Source of the DNA: Squalus acanthias
Taxonomy: Eukaryota
DNA length: 64,000 nt
Direction: 5' to 3'
Assembly: GCA_030390025.1 (NCBI GenBank)
Contig: CM059431.1
Span: 151,406,001 to 151,470,000 of the forward strand
Position numbers and translations under genes: made by a program. Positions 9,238 to 63,749 of the stretch are shown here, one piece after another. How positions within the stretch are numbered: the stretch's first letter is position 1; the number at the start of each line of letters is the position of its first letter. The notes beneath the pieces are model-generated. The model did not search any database and was not told where the DNA came from. It saw only the letters and a list, made by a program, of their open reading frames with translations.

Positions 9238-9687
9238 TCACGCTTTCAATTTCACACAGCGACCTCCAATGGCTAACATGGAACATTACATCTTTCATAT
9301 TACGCATTTCACGCTCTATTAATCCCGCGTATACAAGCATTTCTCTCTTGTCCCCTCTAGTTCACTTGCCAATCACTATCAATCTGTGTCCTCTGGTTAC
9401 CGACGCTTCAGCCACAGGAAACAGTTTCGCCATTTCTACTCTATCAAAACCATTGGTGATTTTGAACACCTTAATCAAATCTCCTCTTTACCTTCTCTGC
9501 TCTAAGGAGAACAAACCCAGCTTCTAACAACACAGGTGTTAAATCTCCAGTTCGCTATCTCTGCTCAAAGAAGGCAGTCGTAGATTCTGTAGTCTCGCCA
9601 CTTAACTGAAGTCCCTCATCCCTGGTCTCATTATAGTATTGAGAGGTCGCACAACACCAGGTTACAGTCCAACAGTTTTATTTGAAA

Positions 9688-9730
9688 TCACAAGCTTTCG
9701 GAGCTATCGATTTGCTCCTTCCTCAGGTGA
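9688..9730 (-). ncRNA. Minimal type I hammerhead ribozyme, left arm
   Basis: Reverse complement of 14152-14194. Confidence 0.8.
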
Positions 9731-10062
9731 AGTAAATTAGATACAGAATCTCCAAAGCATATATAGGTGGAAAACAAAGCATGTGTACTTTACAATTGCA
9801 GACCAATAAATTAAATCATCCTGACTATCTGCCGAGGTGTGATAAAGTTAATTAAGTCAGCCAGGAAGGTACCACATCAAAGACATAGCAAGATACAACT
9901 GAGACAATGAGGTGTAGTCGCAGGGGTTCCAACGTGTCAAAAGCTGCCGTCTGTATGTAAAACGAAAAGCTTTAACATTTTTTTACTTTTTTACTGGGAA
10001 AATTTTTACTTTTTTACTGGGAATCACATCTGTGAACAAGCTAACGACGACTCGAGTCCGGA

Positions 10063-12488
10063 TCACGTCATGTATCGTGACATAAACCCAAGATCCCGAT
10101 TGAGACCGTCTTCATGAGTGCGGAACTTGGCTATCAGTTTCTGCTCGATGATTTTGCGTTGTCGTGTGTTTCTAAGATTGCCTTGGAGAACGCTTACCCG
10201 CAGATCCGAGGCTGAATGTCCTTGACTGCTGAAGTGTTCCCCGACTGGGAGGTAACAATCCTGCCTGGCGATTGTTGCGCGGTGCTCGTTCATACGTTGT
10301 CTCAGTGTCTGCATGGTCTCGCCGATGTACCATGCCGCGGTGCATTCTTTCCTGCAACGTATGAGGTAGACAACTTTGGCCGAGTCACATGAGTATGTAC
10401 CATGTACCTGGTGGGTAGTGTCCTCACGTGTGATGGTGGTATCTGTGTTGATGATCTGGCATGTCTTGCAGAGTTTGCCATGGCAGGGTTGTGTGGTGTC
10501 GTGGTCGCTGTTATCCTGAAAGCTGGGTAATTTGCTGCGAACGATGGTACTTCTGAGGTTAGGCGGCTGTTTGAAGGCAAGTAGTGGAGGCGTGGGGATG
10601 GCCTTAGCGAAGTGTTTGTCGTCATCGATGACATGTTCAAGGCTGCGAAGAACATGGCGTAGTTTCTCCGCTCCGGGGAAGTACTGGACGACGTAGGGTA
10701 CCCTGTTGGTTGTGTCCCGTGTTTGCCTTCTGAGGAGGTCTATGCGATTTTTCGCTGTGGCCCGTCGGAACTGTCGATCGATGAGTCGAGCGTCATATCC
10801 CGTTCTTACGAGGGCGTTTTTCAGCGTCCGTAGGTGTCCATCGCGTTCCTCCTCGTCTGAGCAGATCCTGTGTATTCGCAGGGCTTGTCCATAGGGGATG
10901 GCTTCTTTAACATGGTTAGGGTGGAAGCTGGAGAAGTGGAGCATCGTGAGGTTGTCCGTGGGCTTGCGGTAGAGTGAAGTGCTGAGGTGTCCGTCTTTGA
11001 TGGAGATTCGTGTGTCCAGGAATGAGACTGATTCTGAGGAGTAGTCCATGGTGAGTTTGATGGTGGGATGGAACATGTTTATGTTATCGTGTAGTCTTTT
11101 CAGTGATCCTTCGCCATGGGTCCAAAGGAAGAAAATGTCGTCGATGTATCTGGTATACAGCGTTGGCTGGAGGTCCTGTGCAGCGAAGAAGTCTTGCTCG
11201 AACTTGTGCATGAAGATGTTGGCGTATTGGGGTGCGAATTTGGTCCCCATGGCTGTTCCGTGTGTTTGGGTAAAAAAATGGTTTTCGAAGGTGAAGACAT
11301 TGTGGTCAAGGATGAAGCGGATGAGTTGTAGGATGGCGTCTGGAGATTGGCTGTTGTTGATGTTGAGTACTGAGGCTGTTGCAGCGATGCCGTCATCGTG
11401 GGGGATACTGGTGTAGAGTGCCGATACGTCCATCGTGGCAAGGAGTGTTCCTGGTTCAACTGGTCCGTGGGTGCTGAGTTTCTGTAAGAAGTCTGTAGTG
11501 TCGCGACAGAAGCTGGGGGTTCCCTGTACGATGGGTTTCAGAATGCCCTCGACGTATCCAGAGAGGTTCTCACACAGGGTTCCATTGCCTGATACGATAG
11601 GACGTCCGGGTGTGTTGGCTTTGTGTATCTTTGGGAGGCAGTAGAAGTCTCCCACGCGGGGATTACGTGGGATGAGAGCGCGTAGGATGTTTTGAAGGTC
11701 TGGATCGAAGGTCTTGATCAGTCTATTGAGTTGGCGGGTGTGTTCTTTGGTCGGATCTGCGGGTAGCTGTCTGTAGTGTTCCTGGTTGTCCAGTTGTCGG
11801 TATGCTTCTTTACAATAGTCCGTTCTGTTCTGTATGACGATGGCTCCTCCTTTGTCCGTTGGTTTGATGACAATGTTGCGGTTGGTCTTGAGAGCGTGGA
11901 TGGCGTTGCGTTGTGCTCGGGTGACATTCTGGACTGTCTTGTGAGTGCGGCTGATGAATCTGGCGTTGATGCATCTCCTGACAGCTTGAGCCTACATGTC
12001 AAGCTTGGGGCAGCGACCCTCCGGAGGGGTCCAGTTTGACTCTTTTTTCTTCGGTTGCTGCACTGCGAGTCCCTCTGTCTGCTGTTCTGGATCATTGATT
12101 GTCTCATTGGGTTTGTTGCTGACATCTTGGGATTTGTGGAAGTATTCCCGGAGCCTCATTCTCCTGATGAATTCCTCCGTGTCTGCCGCGAGGCCGATGG
12201 GGTCCATTTTGGTGGTTGGGCAGAACTTGAGCCCTAGGGCGAGAACTTCGATTTCGTCTGGTTGAAGCGTATGGTCGGACAAGTTGACGATGGACTTCCC
12301 TGTGGTTGCAGCCGTGGTACCGGGGGAGGCTTGGTTGCTGCTGGTGGTGATGCCGAGTTTCTCAAGCTTGCTGTTCTTGATGCGCATGTAGGCAGCGTAG
12401 TTCCGTTGCCTCGTCTGTTTGGTGGTGTCTCGTAACTGGTCTGCTGTGTCCTGAGCACAGGCTGAGAGCATGGACTCTATCTTGGTTG
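10063..12488 (-). pseudogene. Penelope RT + GIY-YIG ORF, 5'-truncated, one in-frame stop at 11992-11994
   Basis: ORFs 11992-12834 and 10063-11655 share a frame; motifs KPTDKGG, FYCLPKIHK, DVSALYTSIP, GTAMG, YIDD, Cys linker CHGKLCKTC (Neptune-type), VVY..YIGET. Confidence 0.9.
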
Positions 12489-13819
12489 ACGGCATCGCTG
12501 CAACAGCCTCAGTACTCAACATCAACAACAGCCAATCTCCAGACGCCATCCTACAACTCATCCGCTTCATCCTTGACCACAATGTCTTCACCTTCGACAA
12601 CCATTTTTTTACCCAAACACACGGAACAGCCATGGGGACCAAATTCGCACCCCAATACGCCAACATCTTCATGCACAAGTTCGAGCAAGACTTCTTCGCT
12701 GCACAGGACCTCCAGCCAACGCTGTATACCAGATACATCGACGACATTTTCTTCCTTTGGACCCATGGCGAAGGATCACTGAAAAGACTACACGATAACA
12801 TAAACATGTTCCATCCCACCATCAAACTCACCATGGACTACTCCTCAGAATCAGTCTCATTCCTGGACACACGAATCTCCATCAAAGACGGACACCTCAG
12901 CACTTCACTCTACCGCAAGCCCACGGACAACCTCACGATGCTCCACTTCTCCAGCTTCCACCCTAACCATGTTAAAGAAGCCATCCCCTATGGACAAGCC
13001 CTGCGAATACACAGGATCTGCTCAGACGAGGAGGAACGCGATGGACACCTACGGACGCTGAAAAACGCCCTCGTAAGAACGGGATATGACGCTCGACTCA
13101 TCGATCGACAGTTCCGACGGGCCACAGCGAAAAATCGCATAGACCTCCTCAGAAGGCAAACACGGGACACAACCAACAGGGTACCCTACGTCGTCCAGTA
13201 CTTCCCCGGAGCGGAGAAACTACGCCATGTTCTTCGCAGCCTTCAACATGTCATCGATGACGACAAACACCTCACTAAGGCCATCCCCACGCCTCCACTA
13301 CTTGCCTTCAAACAGCCGCCTAACCTCAGAAGTACCATCGTTCGCAGCAAATTACCCAGCTTTCAGGATAACAGCGACCACGACACCACACAACCCTGCC
13401 ATGGCAAACTCTGCAAGACATGCCAGATCATCAACACAGATACCACCATCACACGTGAGGACACTACCCACCAGGTACATGGTACATACTCATGTGACTC
13501 GGCCAACGTTGTCTACCTCATACGTTGCAGGAAAGAATGCACCGCGGCATGGTACATCGGCGAGACCATGCAGACACTGAGACAACGTATGAACGAGCAC
13601 CACGCAACAATCGCCAGGCAGGATTGTTACCTCCCAGTCGGGGAACACTTCAGCAGTCAAGGACATTCAGCCTCGGATCTGCGGGTAAGCGTTCTCCAAG
13701 GCAACCTTAGAAACACACGACAACGCAAAATCATCGAGCAGAAACTGATAGCCATGTTCCGCACTCATGAAGACGGTCTCAATCGGGATCTTGGGTTTAT
13801 GTCACGATACATGACGTGA
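12470..13819 (+). CDS. Penelope ORF C-terminal part (partial RT, GIY-YIG) in the right arm; first 6 codons come from the antisense of the left arm
   Basis: 449-aa open frame nearly identical to the left-arm protein from DGIAATAS onward; lacks N-terminal RT motifs. Confidence 0.7.
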   Translation: MDSILVDGIAATASVLNINNSQSPDAILQLIRFILDHNVFTFDNHFFTQTHGTAMGTKFAPQYANIFMHKFEQDFFAAQDLQPTLYTRYIDDIFFLWTHGEGSLKRLHDNINMFHPTIKLTMDYSSESVSFLDTRISIKDGHLSTSLYRKPTDNLTMLHFSSFHPNHVKEAIPYGQALRIHRICSDEEERDGHLRTLKNALVRTGYDARLIDRQFRRATAKNRIDLLRRQTRDTTNRVPYVVQYFPGAEKLRHVLRSLQHVIDDDKHLTKAIPTPPLLAFKQPPNLRSTIVRSKLPSFQDNSDHDTTQPCHGKLCKTCQIINTDTTITREDTTHQVHGTYSCDSANVVYLIRCRKECTAAWYIGETMQTLRQRMNEHHATIARQDCYLPVGEHFSSQGHSASDLRVSVLQGNLRNTRQRKIIEQKLIAMFRTHEDGLNRDLGFMSRYMT

Positions 13820-14151
13820 TCCGGACTCGAGTCGTCGTTAGCTTGTTCACAGATGTGATTCCCAGTAAAAAAGTAAAAATTTTCCCAGTAAAAAAGTAAA
13901 AAAATGTTAAAGCTTTTCGGTTTACATACAGACGGCAGCTTTTGACACGTTGGAACCCCTGCGACTACACCTCATTGTCTCAGTTGTATCTTGCTATGTC
14001 TTTGATGTGGTACCTTCCTGGCTGACTTAATTAACTTTATCACACCTCGGCAGATAGTCAGGATGATTTAATTTATTGGTCTGCAATTGTAAAGTACACA
14101 TGCTTTGTTTTCCACCTATATCTGCTTTGGAGATTCTGTATCTAATTTACT

Positions 14152-14194
14152 TCACCTGAGGAAGGAGCAAATCGATAGCTCCGAAAGCTTGTGA
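14152..14194 (+). ncRNA. Minimal type I hammerhead ribozyme, right arm
   Basis: UCAC-CUGAGGA-A-GGAGC(AAAUCGAUA)GCUCC-GAAAGCUU-GUGA: intact core, stem I UCAC/GUGA, palindromic AAGCUU stem III; followed by AATAAA. Confidence 0.85.
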
Positions 14195-15357
14195 TTTCAA
14201 ATAAAACTGTTGGACTATAACCTGGTGTTGTGCGACCTCTCAATTTTGTCCACCCCAGTCCAACACCGGCATCTCCGCATCATGCTCATTATAGTAACCA
14301 TGATGTGAATATGCCGGTGTTGGACTGGTGTGGACAAAAGTGAGAAGTCGCACAACACCAGGTTATAGCCTCAGCAGCCAGGAGAAGGGGAAGGAGAATG
14401 AGCAGCAGCAGCAGAGTGGTGGTCTCTGTGACCAGGAAGAGGAGAAGGAGACCAGACAGCAGACCACTACCAACACATCCACAACAACAACTGAGGTGCC
14501 TGGAGAGAGAGGACAGGAGAGGAGAAAGAAAAGCAAAGAAGGCCAAGGCCATCAACAGCAGAGGAGAGGCCTTTCCATCACTGCCTCCTCAATTGGCCTC
14601 CATTTTAGGAGAGGGAGAGAGGGGAGAAAACATCCCAACAACCATCAACTGTTTGGAAGGAGGGAGGAAGGAAAGAATATCAGCTACAGGTGGGTGTGAT
14701 TCTGGTGCACTCTCCCAGAGACTTTGTTTTGTAGGTGGGGGGAGGAAAGAAGAAAAGAAGAGGGCCAAAACATCCAAGGGGTGTGTGTGTGTGTGTGGCT
14801 TTTGTAAAAACTAGGCCGCACACACCATATTAAACACCCCTTTCCCATTGCCTGGCCTGGGACAGCTGGAGCTGCCTAGGTGAAGTTACCCAATTTAAGT
14901 TCATCTAATTGGGCATCGTTAAGACCTGGTGCAGGACTGAGCCTGGGCATCTCCAGCTTTCCCAGGTGAAGACATCTTCTCCCCCCACCAGAAGACCACC
15001 ACCAAAGACTTTTATTTACATCGGAGAGTGCACCCCCTGCCAACACCCACCCACCAACCAGCCTGAGTGGCGACCCTGCCCTTGCGGCTTCCCTCCTTCC
15101 CACCCCCTCTCTCTCTCTCTTTGTCTCTTGTCTCTCTCTGCCTCTCTCTCTAAGAGGCACCTCAATTTACTTTTAATTAAGTACCCATTGAGCAGAGGGG
15201 AGAAGGCCCCTCTCCCAATTCAATCAAATAAAGGGAGAGGTGTGCCTTCAATTTAAGAGCTCCCTCTGCTCAGGGGAAAACAAATACAAAACCGAGGCCA
15301 TTAACAACTTCAGGCCTGTGACTTGGGGTGAGTGTAGCCCTTAAAGACCCGTCCATT

Positions 15358-17517
15358 ATGGCGAGCACATCTTCGTCGGTGGCGGGGGCAGCGAGGACGT
15401 ATGCGAGTGTGGCAGCCGCGGCCACGGCCGCAGCCAGGAGTCCTCCTGTTACCCCGTCACCTTTTGCCCTCCTTACGAGGAGGAATGGGGTGAAGAGCTA
15501 CACTCACCCCAATATGACAATAGAGGCGTGCGTGAAAGCAATGGCTGGGGTTATCGGCCCTTCAGCCATCGTCGCCGCCTCTAAAATGTACGGCAAGGCT
15601 ATGTTCTTCCTGGGGTCAGAGCGGGCGGTGTCCCTGGCCAGCGAGAAGGGGCTCACCGTGGGCGGGACCTTCCTGCCGGTGGACCCCCTTGAGGCCACCG
15701 CGCAAAGGATTGTTGTTTCCAACGTCCCGCCCTTTGTTCCGGGTGAGCTCCTCCTCCCCCACCTATGTCAACTGGGGGAGGTGAGGTCGGGGATCACACC
15801 CATCCCGCTCGGCTTCCGGGAATCCAGCCTTCGGCACGTCTTCTCCTTCCGGCGCCAGCTTTTCGTCCGGCTGGCGCGGGAGGAGGACGCGGACGGCGCG
15901 TTCACGGTGCTCCACGGGGGGACCGCCCACCGCGTCTTCTGGACCTCGGACGGCATGCGGTGCTACGCCTGTAAGGAGGTGGGGCACGTCCGCAAAAACT
16001 GCCCCGCCTCCAAGGCTGCCACGACACCTAGCGCGGCCAGGGCTGGCGCCGCCGTCCCCCTCCCCCTGATACTGTCCACGCGTCGAGGGCGACGGATGCG
16101 TGGTCGAAATCGGAGGCCAACACCATCACGGCCTCCGGCGGGGGGGAGGGAGAGCGTCCGAGGGTGAAGAAGGCGCTTAGAAAGACTAAACACGTAAGGG
16201 CGGATCCCCTCGTGGAGGAAACATCCGATTTGCCCGAACTCACGCCTGCGTACATCGCGGAGTTGACCGGGACGCGTGAGACTGGGGGGGTCCTCGTGCC
16301 CGGGCCCGTGACCGTGACCGCAACTGCCAAGGCAGCTAAATCAAGACCTGCTGCCGGGCTCGGGCCCGAGGGGCCCAAGAAACCCAGTCATCGGAAGGGG
16401 GCAGAGAGGGAGGCCCCAGCAGACATGGAGGCCTCCCCCTCTCCGGGCCCCAACATGTTAAAAAGGAAGCTCCACCCCCAGGAGGAGGACTGCGAGGAGG
16501 AAGGTCCCTCCGCAGAAGGGGGGGAGTCGCCCGCCGTGGGTGCTGCGCCCCACTCCACCAACGTCATCGTCGTGCGCGAGCGGCAGGGGTCGCCTGTCCC
16601 TCGGGAGGGTTAGACAGCCGAGTCTGTCCGACCTGTGCCTCCCGGGGATGGGGAAGTGACCCTGCCCGTGGGGGGGGGGGCGCGGAACAACCCGCGGATA
16701 TTAATAATAAAAATCCTGAACCGTTGCTACTCGCCGGGTCGGGCGTCCTGGGGACTGGGGCGGGCGAGGCCAAAGAGGCTGAAGCCGAGCCCGCCTTTTA
16801 CAACCCAGATATCTCCCAGGGACTTCTCGACCTGGTGGAGGAGTACAACAATCCCCAGCCCGCTGGGTCGGAGGTTTGTGGCGGGGAGACAGAAAGCCCC
16901 CTGACTCCGTCTCTGATGTTGGCGCCAGACGTACAGGAGGACTTTGAGATTATTTTCTCCCTGGTTTCTCCGGTCGCTCCGGCGCCCGAGGCGGGGGGGG
17001 GGGCCCCGAACCGCCGCCGCCTCCCGGCCCGGCGCCCCTGAAGGAGCCCAGGGTGGACTCCTCTGCCACCGATCCTCGGGGTGGGATCGTAACGGAGGCG
17101 GGGCCGGCCGGTGCGGCCGAGCCGTTCGCTGCACCCCGTGCGACGGACGGGTTGGCCGCCGGTGATGACCTCCCGGAGGAGGACGGGGACTCGGTGTTGG
17201 GCACCGAGGACGATTTGGAGTCCATCGGCAGCGAGGCGATGGACGCCCTCGTGCCCTTCACTGACTCTCCCCTCATCCCCGTAGGGGAACTCCGGGATTT
17301 TATGGCCACGAGCCAGGGTCGTCACAAGAAGATCCGGCTGGCCCTCGACAAGTGGTCGGAGCTGGCGTTGCTCGTCGTGTCCATCCGCGCCGCCGTTAAA
17401 ATCATGGGCGCGGACAAGGACGTTGGCCGGCTCGAGCTGCGTCGGCTCAAGAGTTTCCACACTGGGCTGCTGAGGGAGTGGCGGTCTTCAGTGACCGCGC
17501 TCCCTCCCCTCCGTTAG
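15358..17517 (+). pseudogene. Tx1 ORF1 (CCHC zinc-knuckle nucleic-acid-binding protein), frameshifted
   Basis: MASTSSS..LTRRNGVK..AASKMYGKAMFFL..IVVSNVPPFV..SFRRQLFVRL..CYACKEVGHVRKNC; continues through pieces 16164-16613, 16724-17041 and 17053-17517. Confidence 0.85.
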
Positions 17518-17542
17518 GTAATGGTTGCACTATGCTTCTGAG

Positions 17543-20500
17543 ATGAAGATAACCATAGCCAGCCTCAACATCAACGGCAGCAGGGAGGCGCGCCGTAGAT
17601 TCAATAACTTCTCGGTCCTTCGGGACGGGAAATATGCGGTGTGCTTCCTGCAAGAAACCCACACCGTTCCGGGAGACGAGGCCACGTGGCTCCTGGAGTG
17701 GCAAGGAGGGGTCAGCATGAGTCACCTCTCCAACAATTCCTGCGGGGTGGCTGTCTTGCTGGTCCCGCATTTTCAGCCGGAGATCTTGAGGGTCAAGGAG
17801 CACGTGCCGGGCCGCTGGCTCCAGGTCACTGTTTGCCTGGGAGACGTGCCGCTCCATTTAGTGAACGTGTACGCCCCCCGGACCGGTGCGCAGCAACTGC
17901 GCTTCTTCGGAGAAGTGTCCGCTCATCTGGGCTCCATCGACGTGGGCAAGTGCGTCATCCTCGGGGGGGATTTCAATTGTACCCTCGAGGCGCGGGACCG
18001 GTCGGGTCCCCCGCGAAGCCCGGCGGCGATGGAGAAGTTGCGGGACCTGGTCGGGTCCTTCGACTTGGTGGACGTCTGGCGAAATCTCCATCCCGACTCC
18101 AGCGCCTTCACGAGTGTGAGGTCTGGAGGAGGAAGGTCCAGAATCGACCGCCTTTACATTTCCCGGGCGTACGTCTCCTGCGTTCCGGCGGCTTCCATGC
18201 GGCTGGTGCCGTGCACGGACCACCACCTGGTGTGGGCGGAGCTCGCTCCGCTGCACGCACGGTGGGGAGTCCGCGTACTGGCATTTTAACAACCTGCTGC
18301 TGGAGGACGCGCGGTTCCGGGATTCGTTTCGCCGGTTCTGGGCCGACTGGAGAAGGAAGCGGGGAGGCTTCCCCTCCTTGAGGCTTTGGTGGGACGTGGG
18401 CAAGGCTCACGTCCGTGTCTTCTGTCAGGAGTACGCGAAGGGGTCGACCAAGAGGCGGGAGGCCCGGGTCGGGCGATTGGAGAAAGAAGTGCTCGACCTG
18501 GAGTCCCGTCTCGGTCAGGTCGTCGAGGACCCGGCCCTGCGGAAGGTGTACGAAGAGAAGAAGGGCGCGCTGAAGGGCCTGCAGCTGGTCGGGTCCCGAG
18601 GCGCGTAAGTGAGGTCGCGGATCCAGTTCCTGCGGGACCTGGACCGCGGCTCCCCCTTCTTCTACTCGCTGGAAAAATGACGGGGGGTCCTTAAGCAGCT
18701 CTTGGGGCTGCTGGCCGACGACGGATCTCTGGTCTCGGATCCGGAGGGCATCAGCGCGGAGGCCCGGGCCTATTACGGGGCTCTGTTCTCTTCGGATCCG
18801 TCCAGCGAGGATGCGCGCAGAGTTTTGTGGGAGGACCTGCCGAAGGTCGGCCCGGAGGGCGCCGGGAATTTGGAAGCTCCGCTAAGCCTGGCGGAGCTGA
18901 CCGGTGCCCTGCGCCAGCTCTCGAGGGGCAAGTCCCCGGGCCTGGATGGGCTGACCGTGGAGTTCCACAGGGCGTTCTGGGACGTCTTGGGGGACGACTA
19001 CGCGCGGGTCCTGGGGGAAAGTCTGGCGACCGGGCAGATGCCCCTCTCTTGGCGCAGGGCGGTCATCGTCCTGCTGCCCAAGAAGGGCAATCTCCGCCTA
19101 CTTAAGAACTGGCGCCCGGTCTCCCTCCTCAGCACGGACTACAAAATTTTCGCCAGGGCTATGTCTGCTCGCCTTGGCACCGTGCTGGCCCACATGATCC
19201 ACCCCGACCAGTCCTACACGGTCCCGGGCCGGACAATCCACGACAACATCCATCTGGTCCGGGACCTGGTCCACCATTCCCAGAGGGCTGGTCTGTCGGT
19301 CGCCTTCCTTTCCCTAGATCAGGAGAAGGCGTTCGACAGGGTGGATCACGAGTATCTTTTCGGGACTCTGCGCGCATTCGGGTTCGGGACGCATTTCGTC
19401 ACCCGGATCCGACTTCTGTACGCCGCCGCGGAGTGTCTGATTAAAGTTAACGGGTCTTTGACTGCGCCCCTTTGCTTCGGGAGGGGGGTGCGTCAGGGAT
19501 GCCCCATGTCCGGTCAGTTATACGCCGTTTGCGTGGAGCCTTTCCTGCGCCTCTTGCGGAAGAGGTTGATGGGACTGGCTCTGCAAGGGCCGGGTGTGGA
19601 GGTGGTCCTCTCGGCTTATGCCGATGACGTGCTCCTCGCGGTCACGGATCCCGTCGACTTGCGGAGGATGCGAGAATGCCAGCAGATTTACTCGGACGCA
19701 TCCTCCGCCAAGATCAACTGGCAGAAATGTTCTGGACTCCTGATGGGGCCATGGCAGGTGGACTCCCTGCCGGAGGAGTTCGGGCCTTCCGCCTGGAGCA
19801 CCACGCACCTCTTCTACCTGGGAGTCTACCTCAGCCCGGCCGAGGATGCCTGGCCGGCGAACTGGCAAGAGCTGGAGGCCAAAGTCAACTCTCGCCTAGG
19901 GCGCTGGACAGGACTGCTCCGAGTGATGTCCTACAGGGGTCGAGCGCTGGTCATAAACCAGCTGGTGGCCGCCATGTTGTGGTACCGGTTGGTCACTTTG
20001 ATCCCTCCCCCTGCGTTTGTCGCCAAGATGCAGAAGAAGCTCGTCGCCTTCTTCTGGGACAAAAGGAAGCACTGGGTCTCTGCCGTGGTTTTGAGTCTCC
20101 CGCTTAGGGAGGGCGGTCAGGCGTTGGTGTGCCTTCGCACCCAGGCGGCAACTTTCCGTCTTCAGACGCTGCAGAGATACCTGTACGTGGAGAATCCTCC
20201 TAGGTGGCGTGCGCTGGCGACGTATTTCTTCCGCCAGCTGCACGGCCTCAATTACGACACGCAGCTCCTGTTTGTGAGAGTGGGTGGCACGCGTGCCAGC
20301 CTGTGGGAGCTGCCTGTCTTCTACCAGGAACTGCTATGGGTTTGGAACAGCGTCGCCTCCGAGCGCAGTTCTCCCCCGTCAGGAGCGGCGGCCGTCCTTC
20401 GGGAGCCGCTGTTCAGGAATCCGCACCTCCACGACCGCGGGTTCGGCTGGCTGGCGGAGGGCAGGGCTGTGCCCGGTAAGGTGACCAGAGTCGGGGACCT

Positions 20501-21443
20501 GCTCGATGGCGGAGGAGCAGGCTGGATGGCGCCGGAGGAGTTGGCGAGGCGCATGTCCTGGGTCAACGTCCGGCTCGCGGTCAAAGCCATCGAGTCGCTA
20601 AAAGTGGCACTGGGCCCTGTCTCCACTAGGTGTGTCGAGGAGGCTCAAGCACGTGGGGCGATCCCGTCCGAACTGACCCCCGTTCGGACGGAATTCCTTA
20701 TCGGCGCCCGGCCCCGAATCCTCCCTCGGGAGCCGCCGCCTCACCACTTGAGCCTTCTCGGAGAAATGCCCTCCGTGCCCTTTCAATCCGCACGGAGGCG
20801 TTTCCTGTATGGGCTGCTCCTGCACACTCTCCACTTTGCCATCTTCGTCTGCCATCCGGACACGCCTTGGCGTACCATCCTGCCGTCCGGCGGAGGCGAA
20901 GGTCCCCATTGGAAGGCTCTCTACGCGGGAGTCTTCCCTTGTTCTATTGGGGACTTGGCCTGGAGGGTGTTGCACAGAGCAGTCCCGTGCAATAGGGTTT
21001 TAAATAGGTTTACAGACTCCCAGGCTGCTTGCCATTTCTGCGGCCTGGAGGAGTCCGTCTATCACATTTATATTGAATGTGAGAGGTTGCAGCCCCTCTT
21101 TCATTATTTGAAGGGGCTGCTCCTCAATTTCTGGTTGCACTTCAGCCCCACGCTCCTGATCTACGGTCACCCGGTGCGGAGGGGAGCGGGTAGGTCGGAG
21201 GACCTCCTCGTAGGACTGCTCCTGGGCCTGGCCAAGAAAGCCATTAATTGGTCCAGGCAGCGGGCGGTCGAGGGGGTCGTTCGGCCCGATTGCCTGCCTC
21301 TCTTCCGCGGCCATGTTCGCGCCCGGGTGGCCCTGGAGATGGAGCACGCGGTGTCCGCCGGCACGCTTGAGTTTTTCCGCGACCGGTGGGCGCCACGGGG
21401 ACTGGAGTGCATCGTCACCCCGGACTTCCAAATTTTAATTTGA
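17543..21443 (+). pseudogene. Tx1 ORF2 (APE endonuclease, RT, C-terminal zinc finger), disrupted
   Basis: MKITIASLNING, FLQETH, GGDFNC, SRIDR, TDHH; frameshift near 18265, stops at 18606-18608 and 18678-18680; KSPGLDG, NWRPVSLL, LDQEKAFD, QGCPMS, YADD, CHFCGLEESVYHIYIEC. Confidence 0.92.
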
Positions 21444-21879
21444 TTTATTAAGTTTCATTTAAAGTTTTAATTGATTTACAGTTAATTTGGGTTCTGTCCA
21501 ACCAAAAAGAGGAACACCAGGTTATAGTACAACAGCTGTACTTGAAATCACAAGCTTTTGGAGCGCTGCTCCTTCGTCACTTCAGCACTCCGAAAATTTG
21601 TGATTTCAGATAAAGCTGCTGGAATATAACCTGGTGTTGTGCCACTTCCCTCATTATAGTAAGTATTTCCTTCGGGGATGCGAATCTCCATCGCATGTCT
21701 TCTCTCTTCGCTGCAATCTCTGCCCCACTAGTCCGCATAATTATGTTCCTCCATAGTAAATCTCCAAGTAAATTCACAGCCAACCCCTTGGATCTTATGT
21801 TAAAATCTGTTCAAGGGTAGTGACTTTTCATCAATGTATTCAATGTATTGATAGTCAAATAAGAAAATCATATTGAAAT

Positions 21880-62844: not shown

Positions 62845-63749
62845 CGAATTTTGTGACCATTGTCATCCTGTGCCGAGGCAAATGTGGTCTCACGAAGTCG
62901 GTCACTCTCTACTTGTTGACCATGTCTCTCTCGGATCTCCTCGTCATCTCCTTTTTCGTTATATTTGATTACCTCGCCTATTTCCACGTCGCATCTTTAG
63001 TATTTTTTTCTACGGCCGTCTGTACTGTCAACGAGTTCATGAAATCTGCCTTCATGGACTGTTCCGTTTGGTCCACGGTTGCTTTCACCTTCGATCGTTT
63101 CGTGGCTATCTGTCACCAGGGGCTCAAAGCCAAATATTGTACCTTGAGAATGGTGGCCACCGTCCTCGCGACCATCTGGGTGGTGAGCATCCTGAGGAAC
63201 ATCCCCGAATTGTTGAAATACGAGCCTATCGTCACGAAAGACCATCAAGGGTGGGGCTGCCGAGTGAGATTCACCTTTGATTATCTATTGGCATGGGTCA
63301 TCTTTGACTGGGTCCATCACCTACTGACGCCGCTCATTCCATACCTCTCCATCCTCCTCTTCAACTGCCTCACCGTCAAGCACATCTTGGCGGCCAGTTT
63401 GGCCCGGAGGAGAATCCGGAGTCAAACCGGCACCAGCGATGTCGAGATGAGAAACCGGAGAAAATCTATCATTCTGCTCTTCAGCATATCGGCTAGCTTC
63501 ATCCTGCTGTGGATGCCCAATGTAATTCGTTTCACCCTGGACCGAATTGCCAAGCTTTATTACAGCCCGGCTGACTTTACACACCCCTTGGCCATTCTCC
63601 GCCAGACTGGAAACATGTTGATGCTTCTGAGTTCGTGTGTCAATACGTTTATTTATGCCTTGACTCAAACTAAGTTCAGGAAAGAGCTGCTGAATGGGCT
63701 GATATTTCCTTTTGCTGTGATTGCTAAGTTAGTTAAATTAGTTCAGTGA
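62845..63749 (+). CDS. GPCR copy 3, coding exon 2; intact class A 7TM receptor, GPR139/GPR142-like (324 aa spliced)
   Basis: Acceptor TTTCTCTTTCTTGCAG; G+CG gives IGIPANFVTIVIL; LSDLLV (TM2), TFDRFVAICH (DRY equivalent), FILLWMP (TM6), NTFIY (NPxxY equivalent); no stops. Confidence 0.9.

What the first reader, a model, noticed from the sequence alone, without database searches (positions are those of the whole stretch)
14369..15357. Tx1 5' leader can fold into a ~900-nt nested multi-helix RNA
Seen: the leader looks like low-complexity sequence but contains complementary segments in strictly nested order. These are TGAGGTGCCT 14492-14501/15155-15164; GAGAGAGAGG 14503-14512/15141-15150; GAGAGAGGGG 14615-14624/15104-15113; GGAAGGAGGGA 14655-14665/15090-15100; GGTGGGTGT 14689-14697/15043-15051; GGTGCACTCTCC 14704-14715/15023-15034; and GGTGGGGGGAG 14734-14744/14979-14989. 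They enclose two apical arms: AAGGGGTGT 14776-14784/14834-14842, and a 25-bp stem 14856-14880/14942-14966 (22 Watson-Crick pairs plus one GU). A separate three-helix hairpin follows (15189-15199/15262-15272, GAAGGC/GCCTTC, CCTCTCCC/GGGAGAGG) about 85 nt before ORF1. A-rich linkers are left unpaired, so this is not a simple DNA palindrome. Inference: an evolved structured RNA element (IRES or shunt, RNP packaging scaffold, or processing element). I know of no description of this for Tx1 leaders.
Basis: partly seen in the sequence, partly recalled or inferred. Interest (0 to 1): 0.82.

Follow-up and report, generated by a model that had tools for sequence, protein, structure and literature searches.

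The report
Highly folded retrotransposon RNA leader
The 1-kb start of a young jumping-gene (Tx1-type LINE) family carries nested complementary segments that are kept across its subfamilies, lacks start codons, and is predicted to fold, like the rest of its transcript, far more than chance allows, likely to compact and shield the RNA and to ration it between translation and packaging.

Summary
All ten helices are exact. The fold beats global, local and block-order shuffles (z -5.6 to -14).

The region is the 5' leader of a young Tx1-clade LINE (ORF2 50% identical to Xenopus Tx1; 1,147 exact copies of a leader motif). Across subfamilies helix letters stay 90-99% identical while linkers turn over. 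Inherited changes avoid paired sites (p=0.002). Clean compensatory changes are few, about five.

Three results change the reading. (1) The leader is almost AUG-free, has no short uORF and no ribozyme motif, so a classic shunt, picornavirus-type IRES or self-cleaver is not supported. [quoted passage not shown] (3) The 25-bp stem is dispensable: one young subfamily deleted an arm, and that subfamily inserts antisense into the apex of its sister's leader.

Best reading: the long-range 5' domain of a transcript folded end to end, scanned slowly from a cap, with an apical purine loop as a candidate packaging site. Function is untested and all folds are predictions.

The parts
14369..21513 (+). Full-length Tx1-clade LINE copy (subfamily A); both ORFs are frameshifted in this copy, intact in sister copies
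14355..14368 (+). Left target-site duplication (14 bp); right copy at 21514-21527; the target is the end of a Penelope-like terminal repeat
14369..15357 (+). 5' leader: one ATG (14388), CpG observed/expected 0.11
14416..14470 (+).
14492..15164 (+). Long-range nested domain closed by 14492-14501/15155-15164; inner helices 14503-12/15141-50, 14615-24/15104-13, 14655-65/15090-100, 14689-97/15043-51, 14704-15/15023-34, 14734-44/14979-89
14745..14764 (+). Unpaired purine run at the top of the long stem; a purine run at this place in 120 of 128 leaders; candidate ORF1p site (inferred)
14776..14842 (+). Apical arm 1 with (GT)n; 14779-14787 is the site at which subfamily B inserts antisense into other subfamily A leaders
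14856..14966 (+). Apical arm 2 (25-bp interrupted stem); its 5' strand can also form a local hairpin 14856-14880; the 5' strand is deleted in young subfamily B
14914..14976 (+). Most conserved sequence block of the apex, matched in 120 of 128 leaders and kept in subfamily B
15189..15272 (+). Three-helix hairpin before ORF1; outer helix 99% paired in 27 leaders, inner helices lost in some subfamilies
15313..15342 (+). Conserved block 15 nt before the start codon
15358..17517 (+). ORF1 (CCHC zinc knuckle PF00098); start codon with A at -3 in 76 of 80 loci examined
17543..21443 (+). ORF2 (endonuclease PF03372, RT PF00078, zf-RVT PF13966); over-folded along its length
14152..14193 (+). Minimal hammerhead-like motif in the Penelope-like target repeat, 175 nt upstream of the element (not part of the leader)

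Best explanation
The region is the 5' leader of a young Tx1-clade LINE whose paired segments are conserved across subfamilies, and it is predicted to be the long-range 5' domain of a sense transcript selected to fold end to end, likely to compact and shield the RNA, while ribosomes likely scan it slowly from a 5' cap and ORF1 protein would bind the purine loop at its apex to divert the RNA into the retrotransposition particle. Shown: complementarity, nested order, conservation of helix letters, depletion of inherited changes at paired sites, near absence of AUG, excess predicted folding of both ORFs. Inferred: that the helices form in cells; that initiation is cap-dependent and linear (short helices of 13-18 bp at most would be opened one after another); that the apical purine run binds the CCHC protein, by analogy with plant pararetrovirus leaders; that the purpose is shielding from host RNA surveillance, by analogy with genome-scale ordered structure in RNA viruses.
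For: Fold beats four kinds of null, also in 7 of 7 diverged leaders tested, z -6.4 to -13.9. Helix letters 90-99% identical to the window in 8 subfamily representatives against 62-88% for unpaired sites and 73-92% for four-fold sites of ORF1. In 15 full-length copies private changes hit paired and unpaired leader sites alike (43/531, 34/310) but shared changes do not (17/531, 42/310), p=0.002. On a tree of 128 leaders inherited changes end in a pair 22:15, tip changes 74:132, p=0.010. Compensatory changes at 14706:15032, 14697:15043, 14796:14818, 14797:14817. ORFs fold 13.2% and 15.2% better than shuffles that keep protein, codons and dinucleotides, 20 of 20 windows; four other ORFs of the window -5.1 to 0.4%. 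Sense strand above antisense in 16 of 20 windows. ATG 0 against 8.6 expected in the core, 0-3 in 29 of 29 leaders; depleted in all four parts of the leader; 1 gain in 425 inherited changes against 24 in 1,251 tip changes, p=0.010. Apical purine run in 120 of 128 leaders; ORF1 has a CCHC knuckle.
Against: Covariation is thin: RNAalifold covariation term -1.4 kcal/mol, 6 of 121 pairs; pairs with a double change 14 against 11.4 shuffled, 72 of 500 shuffles as high. G-U is not significantly favoured over A-C among inherited changes (10:5 against 54:42, p=0.58; ORFs 25:28 and 39:32). At four-fold sites alone the ORF test is not significant (p=0.18; all third positions p=0.014). GAT is almost as depleted as ATG, so part of the AUG signal may follow from G being confined to stems. 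Subfamily B lacks the 5' strand of the 25-bp stem yet is young and abundant. Antisense MFE is lower than sense in 3 of 7 diverged leaders. No binding, probing or translation data exist. All close relatives come from one genome.
Confidence: 0.45

Rival explanations
1. The leader is an internal ribosome entry site, or is jumped by a shunt without a uORF, so that ORF1 is made from uncapped or read-through transcripts that start in the target repeat.
For: A fold near -370 kcal/mol is hard to scan (general knowledge, recalled). Pyrimidine tracts and a conserved hairpin and motif lie before the start codon. 19 of 30 subfamily A copies begin with a head derived from the target repeat, and this copy sits 175 nt downstream of a minimal hammerhead-like motif. 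Transcription from flanks is discussed for Tx1-mobilised SINEU (PMC4494074, passages).
Against: AUG is depleted inside the domain that would be bypassed (5' arm 2/13.7, apex 3/21.2, 3' arm 0/7.3), whereas picornavirus IRES leaders hold many AUGs (PMC3894237, passage). No Rfam IRES match. Pairing to the 18S 3' end is at chance level. Other subfamilies with the same fold sit in other targets and several start at a fixed GAGTG end.
Confidence: 0.2
2. The complementary blocks are DNA promoter motifs (G-rich and GA-rich boxes in both orientations) left by an old inverted duplication; selection keeps the motifs, and the RNA fold is a by-product.
For: Helix arms are conserved mostly by identity, with few compensatory changes. 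LINE leaders act as internal promoters (PMC5381506, passages). Antisense insertions into the leader happen now. The leader is CpG-poor (0.11) while the ORFs are not (0.87).
Against: Facing linkers differ in length and are not mirror images (T 19 of 94 against A 46 of 108, p=0.0008). Inherited changes keep pairing more often than tip changes. Double changes that keep a pair occur. The ORFs, which are no promoter, are over-folded too, more on the sense strand.
Confidence: 0.15
3. The self-complementarity is made and kept by mutation, not selection: the reverse transcriptase switches template between paired arms and copies one arm from the other.
For: Template switching can create and repair stems (PMC8794818, abstract and opening). 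Helices are nearly pure Watson-Crick (13 G-U of 203 confident pairs). Double changes at ORF pairs are about three times the independent expectation (49 against 14.8; 37 against 13.9) with no G-U bias. Repair during each retrotransposition round would also lower inherited changes at paired sites.
Against: Copying alone would let both arms drift together; instead helix letters are conserved like second codon positions. Sense-strand excess exceeds antisense. Most distant Tx1-like elements lack the excess (median 4.0%).
Confidence: 0.12
4. The fold is a self-limiting double-stranded RNA source (Dicer or ADAR substrate) that damps the element.
For: About 60% of leader bases are predicted paired. 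Shared A>G changes exceed T>C on the sense strand of the ORFs (32/1015 against 9/1182).
Against: The longest uninterrupted helices are 13-18 bp in 8 of 8 leaders and 9-15 bp in ORF windows, short for these enzymes (recalled). No A>G excess at paired leader sites.
Confidence: 0.08

Closest known systems
Xenopus laevis Tx1L and other transposon-targeting Tx1 families (Tx1-Mar; PMC4494074, passages)
   Same: Two ORFs, APE plus RT; ORF2 50% identical over 1,299 aa; insertion into another mobile element at a fixed site.
   Different: Targets here are a Penelope-like terminal repeat (subfamily A) and the leader of a sister Tx1 subfamily (subfamily B). No folded leader was found described in my searches. 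The DNA of Tx1L itself was not examined.
Pregenomic RNA leaders of plant pararetroviruses (CaMV, RTBV) and prototype foamy virus (PMC5902531, passages and section 9; PMC2761275, abstract)
   Same: Long leader folded as one elongated branched hairpin on an RNA that is both mRNA and RT template; purine-rich run exposed at the top; partner protein with a CCHC knuckle; AU-rich stretch after the base.
   Different: Those leaders carry several short uORFs and need one before the stem; this leader has none. It is longer (about 990 nt against 445-600) and belongs to a non-LTR element.
[quoted passage not shown]
   Same: Excess folding along the whole coding region: 11.6% by dinucleotide shuffle in this copy, 13-15% in intact ORFs, against 15% for SARS-CoV-2, 7-9% for HCV and 1.1% for unstructured viruses; fewer inherited changes at paired sites.
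   Different: A chromosomal retrotransposon, not a virus; the leader helices span up to 670 nt and keep their positions between subfamilies, whereas viral GORS is local and poorly conserved in position. Window size and shuffle differ slightly from the published method.
Ribozyme-bearing 5' ends of R2 and hammerheads of Penelope-like elements (PMC4209133, passages; the R2 ribozyme seen only as a cited title in PMC4494074)
   Same: Structured RNA at the 5' end of a target-specific retroelement.
   Different: No hammerhead core, no HDV-like match and no Rfam ribozyme in the leader; the hammerhead-like motif lies in the target.

Membership tests
Tx1 clade of LINEs | ORF2 with AP endonuclease, RT and C-terminal zinc motif; ORF1 with CCHC knuckle | tested here: met
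   Pfam PF03372, PF00078, PF13966 (just below its cut-off), PF00098
Tx1 clade of LINEs | ORF2 close to named Tx1 members | tested here: met
   50% over 1,299 aa to the X. laevis Tx1 149-kDa protein; 55% over residues 1-800 against about 41-42% for teleost relatives
Tx1 clade of LINEs | Target-sequence preference with target-site duplication | tested here: met
   28 of 30 subfamily A copies follow the same motif; 14-bp duplication in the window
Tx1 clade of LINEs | Placement on an RT tree with reference clades | not tested
   No reference tree was built
Short-uORF ribosome shunt (CaMV, RTBV, foamy virus) | Short AUG uORF ending just before the base of the stem | tested here: not met
   The one ATG (14388) reads GTG in sister copies; 0-3 ATG in 29 of 29 core leaders
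Short-uORF ribosome shunt (CaMV, RTBV, foamy virus) | Large stable stem-loop with purine-rich run on top | tested here: met
   Predicted fold; purine run in 120 of 128 leaders
Short-uORF ribosome shunt (CaMV, RTBV, foamy virus) | Unstructured UA-rich landing site after the stem | tested here: inconclusive
   15165-15188 is AU-rich but is followed by a second stable hairpin
uORF-independent shunt (adenovirus type) | Complementarity to the 3' end of 18S rRNA | tested here: not met
   Best match 7-8 nt, reached by 28-85% of shuffles in 8 of 8 leaders
IRES (picornavirus type and Rfam families) | Match to a described IRES; upstream AUGs tolerated | tested here: not met
   No Rfam match near a gathering score; AUG depleted throughout
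IRES (picornavirus type and Rfam families) | Cap-independent initiation | not testable with these tools
   Needs RNA reporter assays
Self-cleaving ribozyme leader | Hammerhead core or HDV-like double pseudoknot | tested here: not met
   No CUGANGA on either strand; own strict HDV-like descriptor found nothing in 8 of 8 leaders; Rfam negative. An unknown ribozyme class is not excluded.
Genome-scale ordered RNA structure | High folding excess across the coding regions | tested here: met
   20 of 20 windows positive, means 13.2% and 15.2%
Genome-scale ordered RNA structure | Lower variation at paired silent sites | tested here: inconclusive
   All ORF sites p=3e-7, third positions p=0.014, four-fold sites alone p=0.18
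Genome-scale ordered RNA structure | Reduced recognition by innate RNA sensors | not testable with these tools
   Needs cell assays

The most novel reading that the evidence does not exclude
A LINE lineage has evolved a virus-like RNA architecture: genome-scale ordered structure over 7 kb plus a pararetrovirus-like leader whose apex switches between two folds to sort the RNA between translation and packaging, and a sister subfamily parasitises it by inserting antisense into that apex while altering the same site in its own leader.
Probability: 0.25. Interest if true: 0.87.

Novelty: new variant of a known kind. Interest (0 to 1): 0.7.

Why it matters
LINE leaders are treated as DNA promoters, and LINE RNA is usually thought of as weakly structured. 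A currently amplifying vertebrate LINE whose leader and coding regions are both selected for folding offers a natural test of whether ordered RNA structure shields a retroelement from host surveillance, how ORF1 is translated through a 1-kb structured leader, and what RNA signal ORF1 protein recognises. More than a thousand copies in several subfamilies give ready-made variants. The subfamily that inserts into its sister's leader is a clean case of one Tx1 family targeting another.

Tried and rejected
Rfam: only weak matches far below gathering scores in the window region and 10 loci. Reading frames in the leader: none long on either strand. Hammerhead core, twister and pistol word patterns (recalled, rough) and an HDV-like descriptor: nothing. 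18S pairing: chance level. Expression: no RNA holder listed; four runs of guessed kind from two other coded organisms, kept as contigs, cover the leader in pieces and show no large skip; none of the 26 leader differences shown breaks a Watson-Crick pair of a named helix, but only 40 of 139 rows were shown, so this is not counted. Other Tx1 lineages in the own genome: four ORF1 queries returned the same lineage. A metagenome scan with ORF1 found no relative. The DNA around the turtle, sturgeon and Xenopus relatives was not obtained, so the fold is untested outside this genome's lineage. First AUG-gain test was blurred by chimeric rows and was repeated without 6 of 134 rows. G-U against A-C bias as proof of strand: not significant. 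One search timed out after 33 ORFs of 80 loci. Earlier findings of the scan: none returned. Simple DNA palindrome and low-complexity artefact: rejected.

Full report
1. The observation. All ten segment pairs are in the sequence as stated. The leader folds at -414.1 kcal/mol, z -9.1 against 20 dinucleotide shuffles. Because the 5' half is purine-rich and the 3' half pyrimidine-rich, I used stricter nulls on the core 14485-15280. Shuffling inside 25- to 800-nt windows gives z -10.0 to -11.4. Reordering intact blocks of 15, 25 or 40 nt gives z -9.3, -8.3, -5.6. No shuffle of 20 per test reached the native energy. Facing linkers differ in length and composition, so this is not a decayed palindrome.

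2. What it is. The region is the whole 5' leader of a LINE at 14369-21513, with a 14-bp target-site duplication. ORF1 has a CCHC knuckle, ORF2 endonuclease and RT domains. An intact sister ORF2 is 50% identical over 1,299 aa to the Xenopus laevis Tx1 protein. The host is likely a cartilaginous fish (inferred: a 68% identical protein piece is from a stingray). The family is young and large: 40 best copies are 93-98% identical, many lie in 7.1-kb tandem arrays, and a 28-nt leader motif occurs 1,147 times, control 0. 28 of 30 copies follow the same motif at the end of a Penelope-like repeat. ORF1 and leader searches gave sister subfamilies, here B to E, 68-80% identical in the leader.

3. Is the pairing selected? 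Seven of seven diverged leaders tested fold at z -6.4 to -13.9 against local shuffles. RNAalifold finds a covariation term of only -1.4. With arms anchored by sequence, clean double changes are 14706:15032 (U-A to G-C, 7 of 27), 14697:15043 (U-A to G-U, 7 of 27), 14796:14818 and 14797:14817 (through G-U); the C-U mismatch of the 25-bp stem is U-A in subfamily E. Helix letters are 90-99% identical to the window (arms under 60% identity were dropped, which raises the figure), against 62-88% for unpaired sites and 73-92% for four-fold ORF1 sites. The cleanest test uses 15 full-length copies: private changes fall on paired and unpaired leader sites at similar rates (43/531, 34/310), shared changes do not (17/531, 42/310), p=0.002. 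On a tree of 128 leaders (134 distinct, 6 chimeric dropped), changes inherited by five or more tips end in a pair 22:15 and tip changes 74:132, p=0.010. Against: G-U is not significantly preferred over A-C (10:5 against 54:42). So selection on the paired segments is well supported, strict covariation is modest.

4. Not every helix is needed. Young subfamily B lacks the 5' strand of the 25-bp stem; subfamily E lost one inner helix of the last hairpin. That 5' strand can also fold on itself, and the best covarying pair of the alignment supports this local hairpin (U-A in 15, C-G in 10, no break), though the long stem is predicted 15-25 kcal/mol more stable. Two folds at the apex are possible, not shown.

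5. The fold is not confined to the leader. As a control I folded the rest of the element: 800-nt windows over the ORFs give z -2.3 to -11.0, five outside windows and a Penelope ORF window +0.8 to -2.1. With shuffles that keep protein, codon usage and all dinucleotides, intact ORF2 and ORF1 fold 13.2% and 15.2% better, 20 of 20 windows positive; six sister-subfamily ORF pieces give 8.3-23.1% (four more had no long frame); four other ORFs in the window give -5.1 to 0.4%. The sense strand exceeds the antisense in 16 of 20 windows. Published values by a similar measure are 15% for SARS-CoV-2, 7-9% for HCV and 1.1% for unstructured viruses (PMC7642675, passages); such structure lowered interferon induction in cells (PMC3950689, abstract). 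It is not a general Tx1 trait: 33 distant Tx1-like ORF2s (24-36% identical; run stopped before the end of 80 loci) have a median of 4.0% and 2 of 33 reach 12%; the stretches upstream of ORF1 in 25 of 27 such loci reach at most 15.7%, against about 36% for this leader. Shared changes also avoid paired ORF sites (p=3e-7), but at four-fold sites alone p=0.18.

6. How it is likely translated. The core leader has no ATG where 8.6 are expected, and 29 of 29 leaders have 0-3; this holds under local shuffles and in all four parts of the leader. ATG is the trinucleotide least often gained on inherited branches (1 of 425 against 24 of 1,251). The start codon has A at -3 in 76 of 80 loci. GAT is nearly as depleted, so composition may contribute. 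The pattern fits linear cap-dependent scanning. It does not fit the short-uORF shunt of pararetroviruses and foamy virus, which needs a uORF before the stem (PMC5902531, passages and section 9; PMC2761275, abstract), nor an 18S-pairing shunt, nor picornavirus-type IRES leaders with many AUGs (PMC3894237, first third and passages). No uninterrupted helix exceeds 18 bp in 8 leaders, so stepwise opening is plausible (inference). No ribozyme was found.

7. Mechanism I commit to (0.45). The transcript is selected to fold along its length; the leader is its long-range 5' domain. It would compact and shield the RNA, slow ORF1 translation, and present a purine run (120 of 128 leaders) at its apex to the CCHC-bearing ORF1 protein, as the CaMV leader presents a purine-rich packaging signal to coat protein (PMC5902531). 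Rivals: IRES or uORF-free shunt (0.2), promoter motifs in an old inverted repeat (0.15), template-switch copying (0.12; PMC8794818, abstract and opening), self-silencing dsRNA (0.08).

8. A second finding at the same spot. Of 22 subfamily B 5' ends listed, 18 directly follow the antisense 3' half of a sister leader, cut at the (CA)nCCCC motif (window 14779-14787). Of 7 B tails seen in 10 fetched 3' flanks, 6 run on into the antisense 5' half of that leader and 1 into a CA microsatellite. 12 of 21 B copies carry an altered version of the site in their own leader. Tx1 families that target other transposons are known (PMC4494074, passages).

9. Novelty. Searches for Tx1 with 5' UTR, stem-loop, ribozyme, target, Penelope, shark, Tx1L, and for GORS with retrotransposon or LINE-1 (listings only) showed no paper on a folded Tx1 leader or on genome-scale structure in a LINE. 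A survey of vertebrate L1 folded only spacer regions in the passages seen (PMC5381506); a base-composition survey notes GC-rich Tx1 sequences (PMC7140322, passages). The library lacks most subscription journals and Repbase Reports, and I did not read the supplements of PMC4494074, which list Tx1 targets. Verdict: real, selected, new variant of known kinds; function untested; all close evidence from one genome.

Noticed in passing
L054-L080, L112, L116, L119, L200; L201-L210; site equals window 14779-14787: Subfamily B inserts antisense at the (CA)nCCCC motif in the leader of subfamily A, with a short CAC(AC)CCC duplication; 12 of 21 B copies have changed that site in their own leader.
   Followed up: partly
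window 15358-21443; L047, L050: Both ORFs fold 13-15% better than strict shuffles, GC3 0.77-0.79.
   Followed up: yes
window 14369-15357 against 15358-21443: CpG observed/expected 0.11 in the leader but 0.87 in both ORFs, the reverse of mammalian L1; ORF CpGs decay fast after insertion (212 private transitions at 1,158 sites) yet are kept in the active lineage.
   Followed up: partly
L002-L030, 5' ends: Two 5' heads in subfamily A: 9 of 30 as in the window, 19 of 30 a head made of target-repeat sequence joined to part of its opposite arm. Other subfamilies have other heads and targets; several start at GAGTG.
   Followed up: partly
window 9640-14368 and 21514-21640: Head-to-head partial duplication of a Penelope-like element (ORFs 10063-11655 minus, 12470-13819 plus) with minimal hammerhead-like motifs at 14152-14193 and near 9690-9730 minus; the Tx1 copy sits in the terminal repeat.
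   Followed up: partly
L050 and 14 other full-length copies: Shared A>G changes exceed T>C on the sense strand of the ORFs (32/1015 against 9/1182); editing, RT bias or selection not told apart.
   Followed up: no
L201, L202, L204-L206, L209, L210: Subfamily B has a long GC-rich repeated 3' region and ends in a poly(A)-signal-like motif, unlike the short U-rich tail of subfamily A.
   Followed up: no
L249, L266, L235: Two distant Tx1-like ORF2s from metagenome contigs also fold 12.7-14.5% above shuffles, and one upstream region scores z -7.1.
   Followed up: no
P0026, P0027, P0084, P0086, P0095, P0141: Very long proteins (2,449-5,500 aa) with 3-5 repeats of the Tx1 ORF1 N-terminal domain; possibly domesticated.
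   Followed up: no
window 62853-63749: Single-exon ORF of 298 aa that reads like a seven-transmembrane receptor (by eye); used only as a folding control.
   Followed up: no
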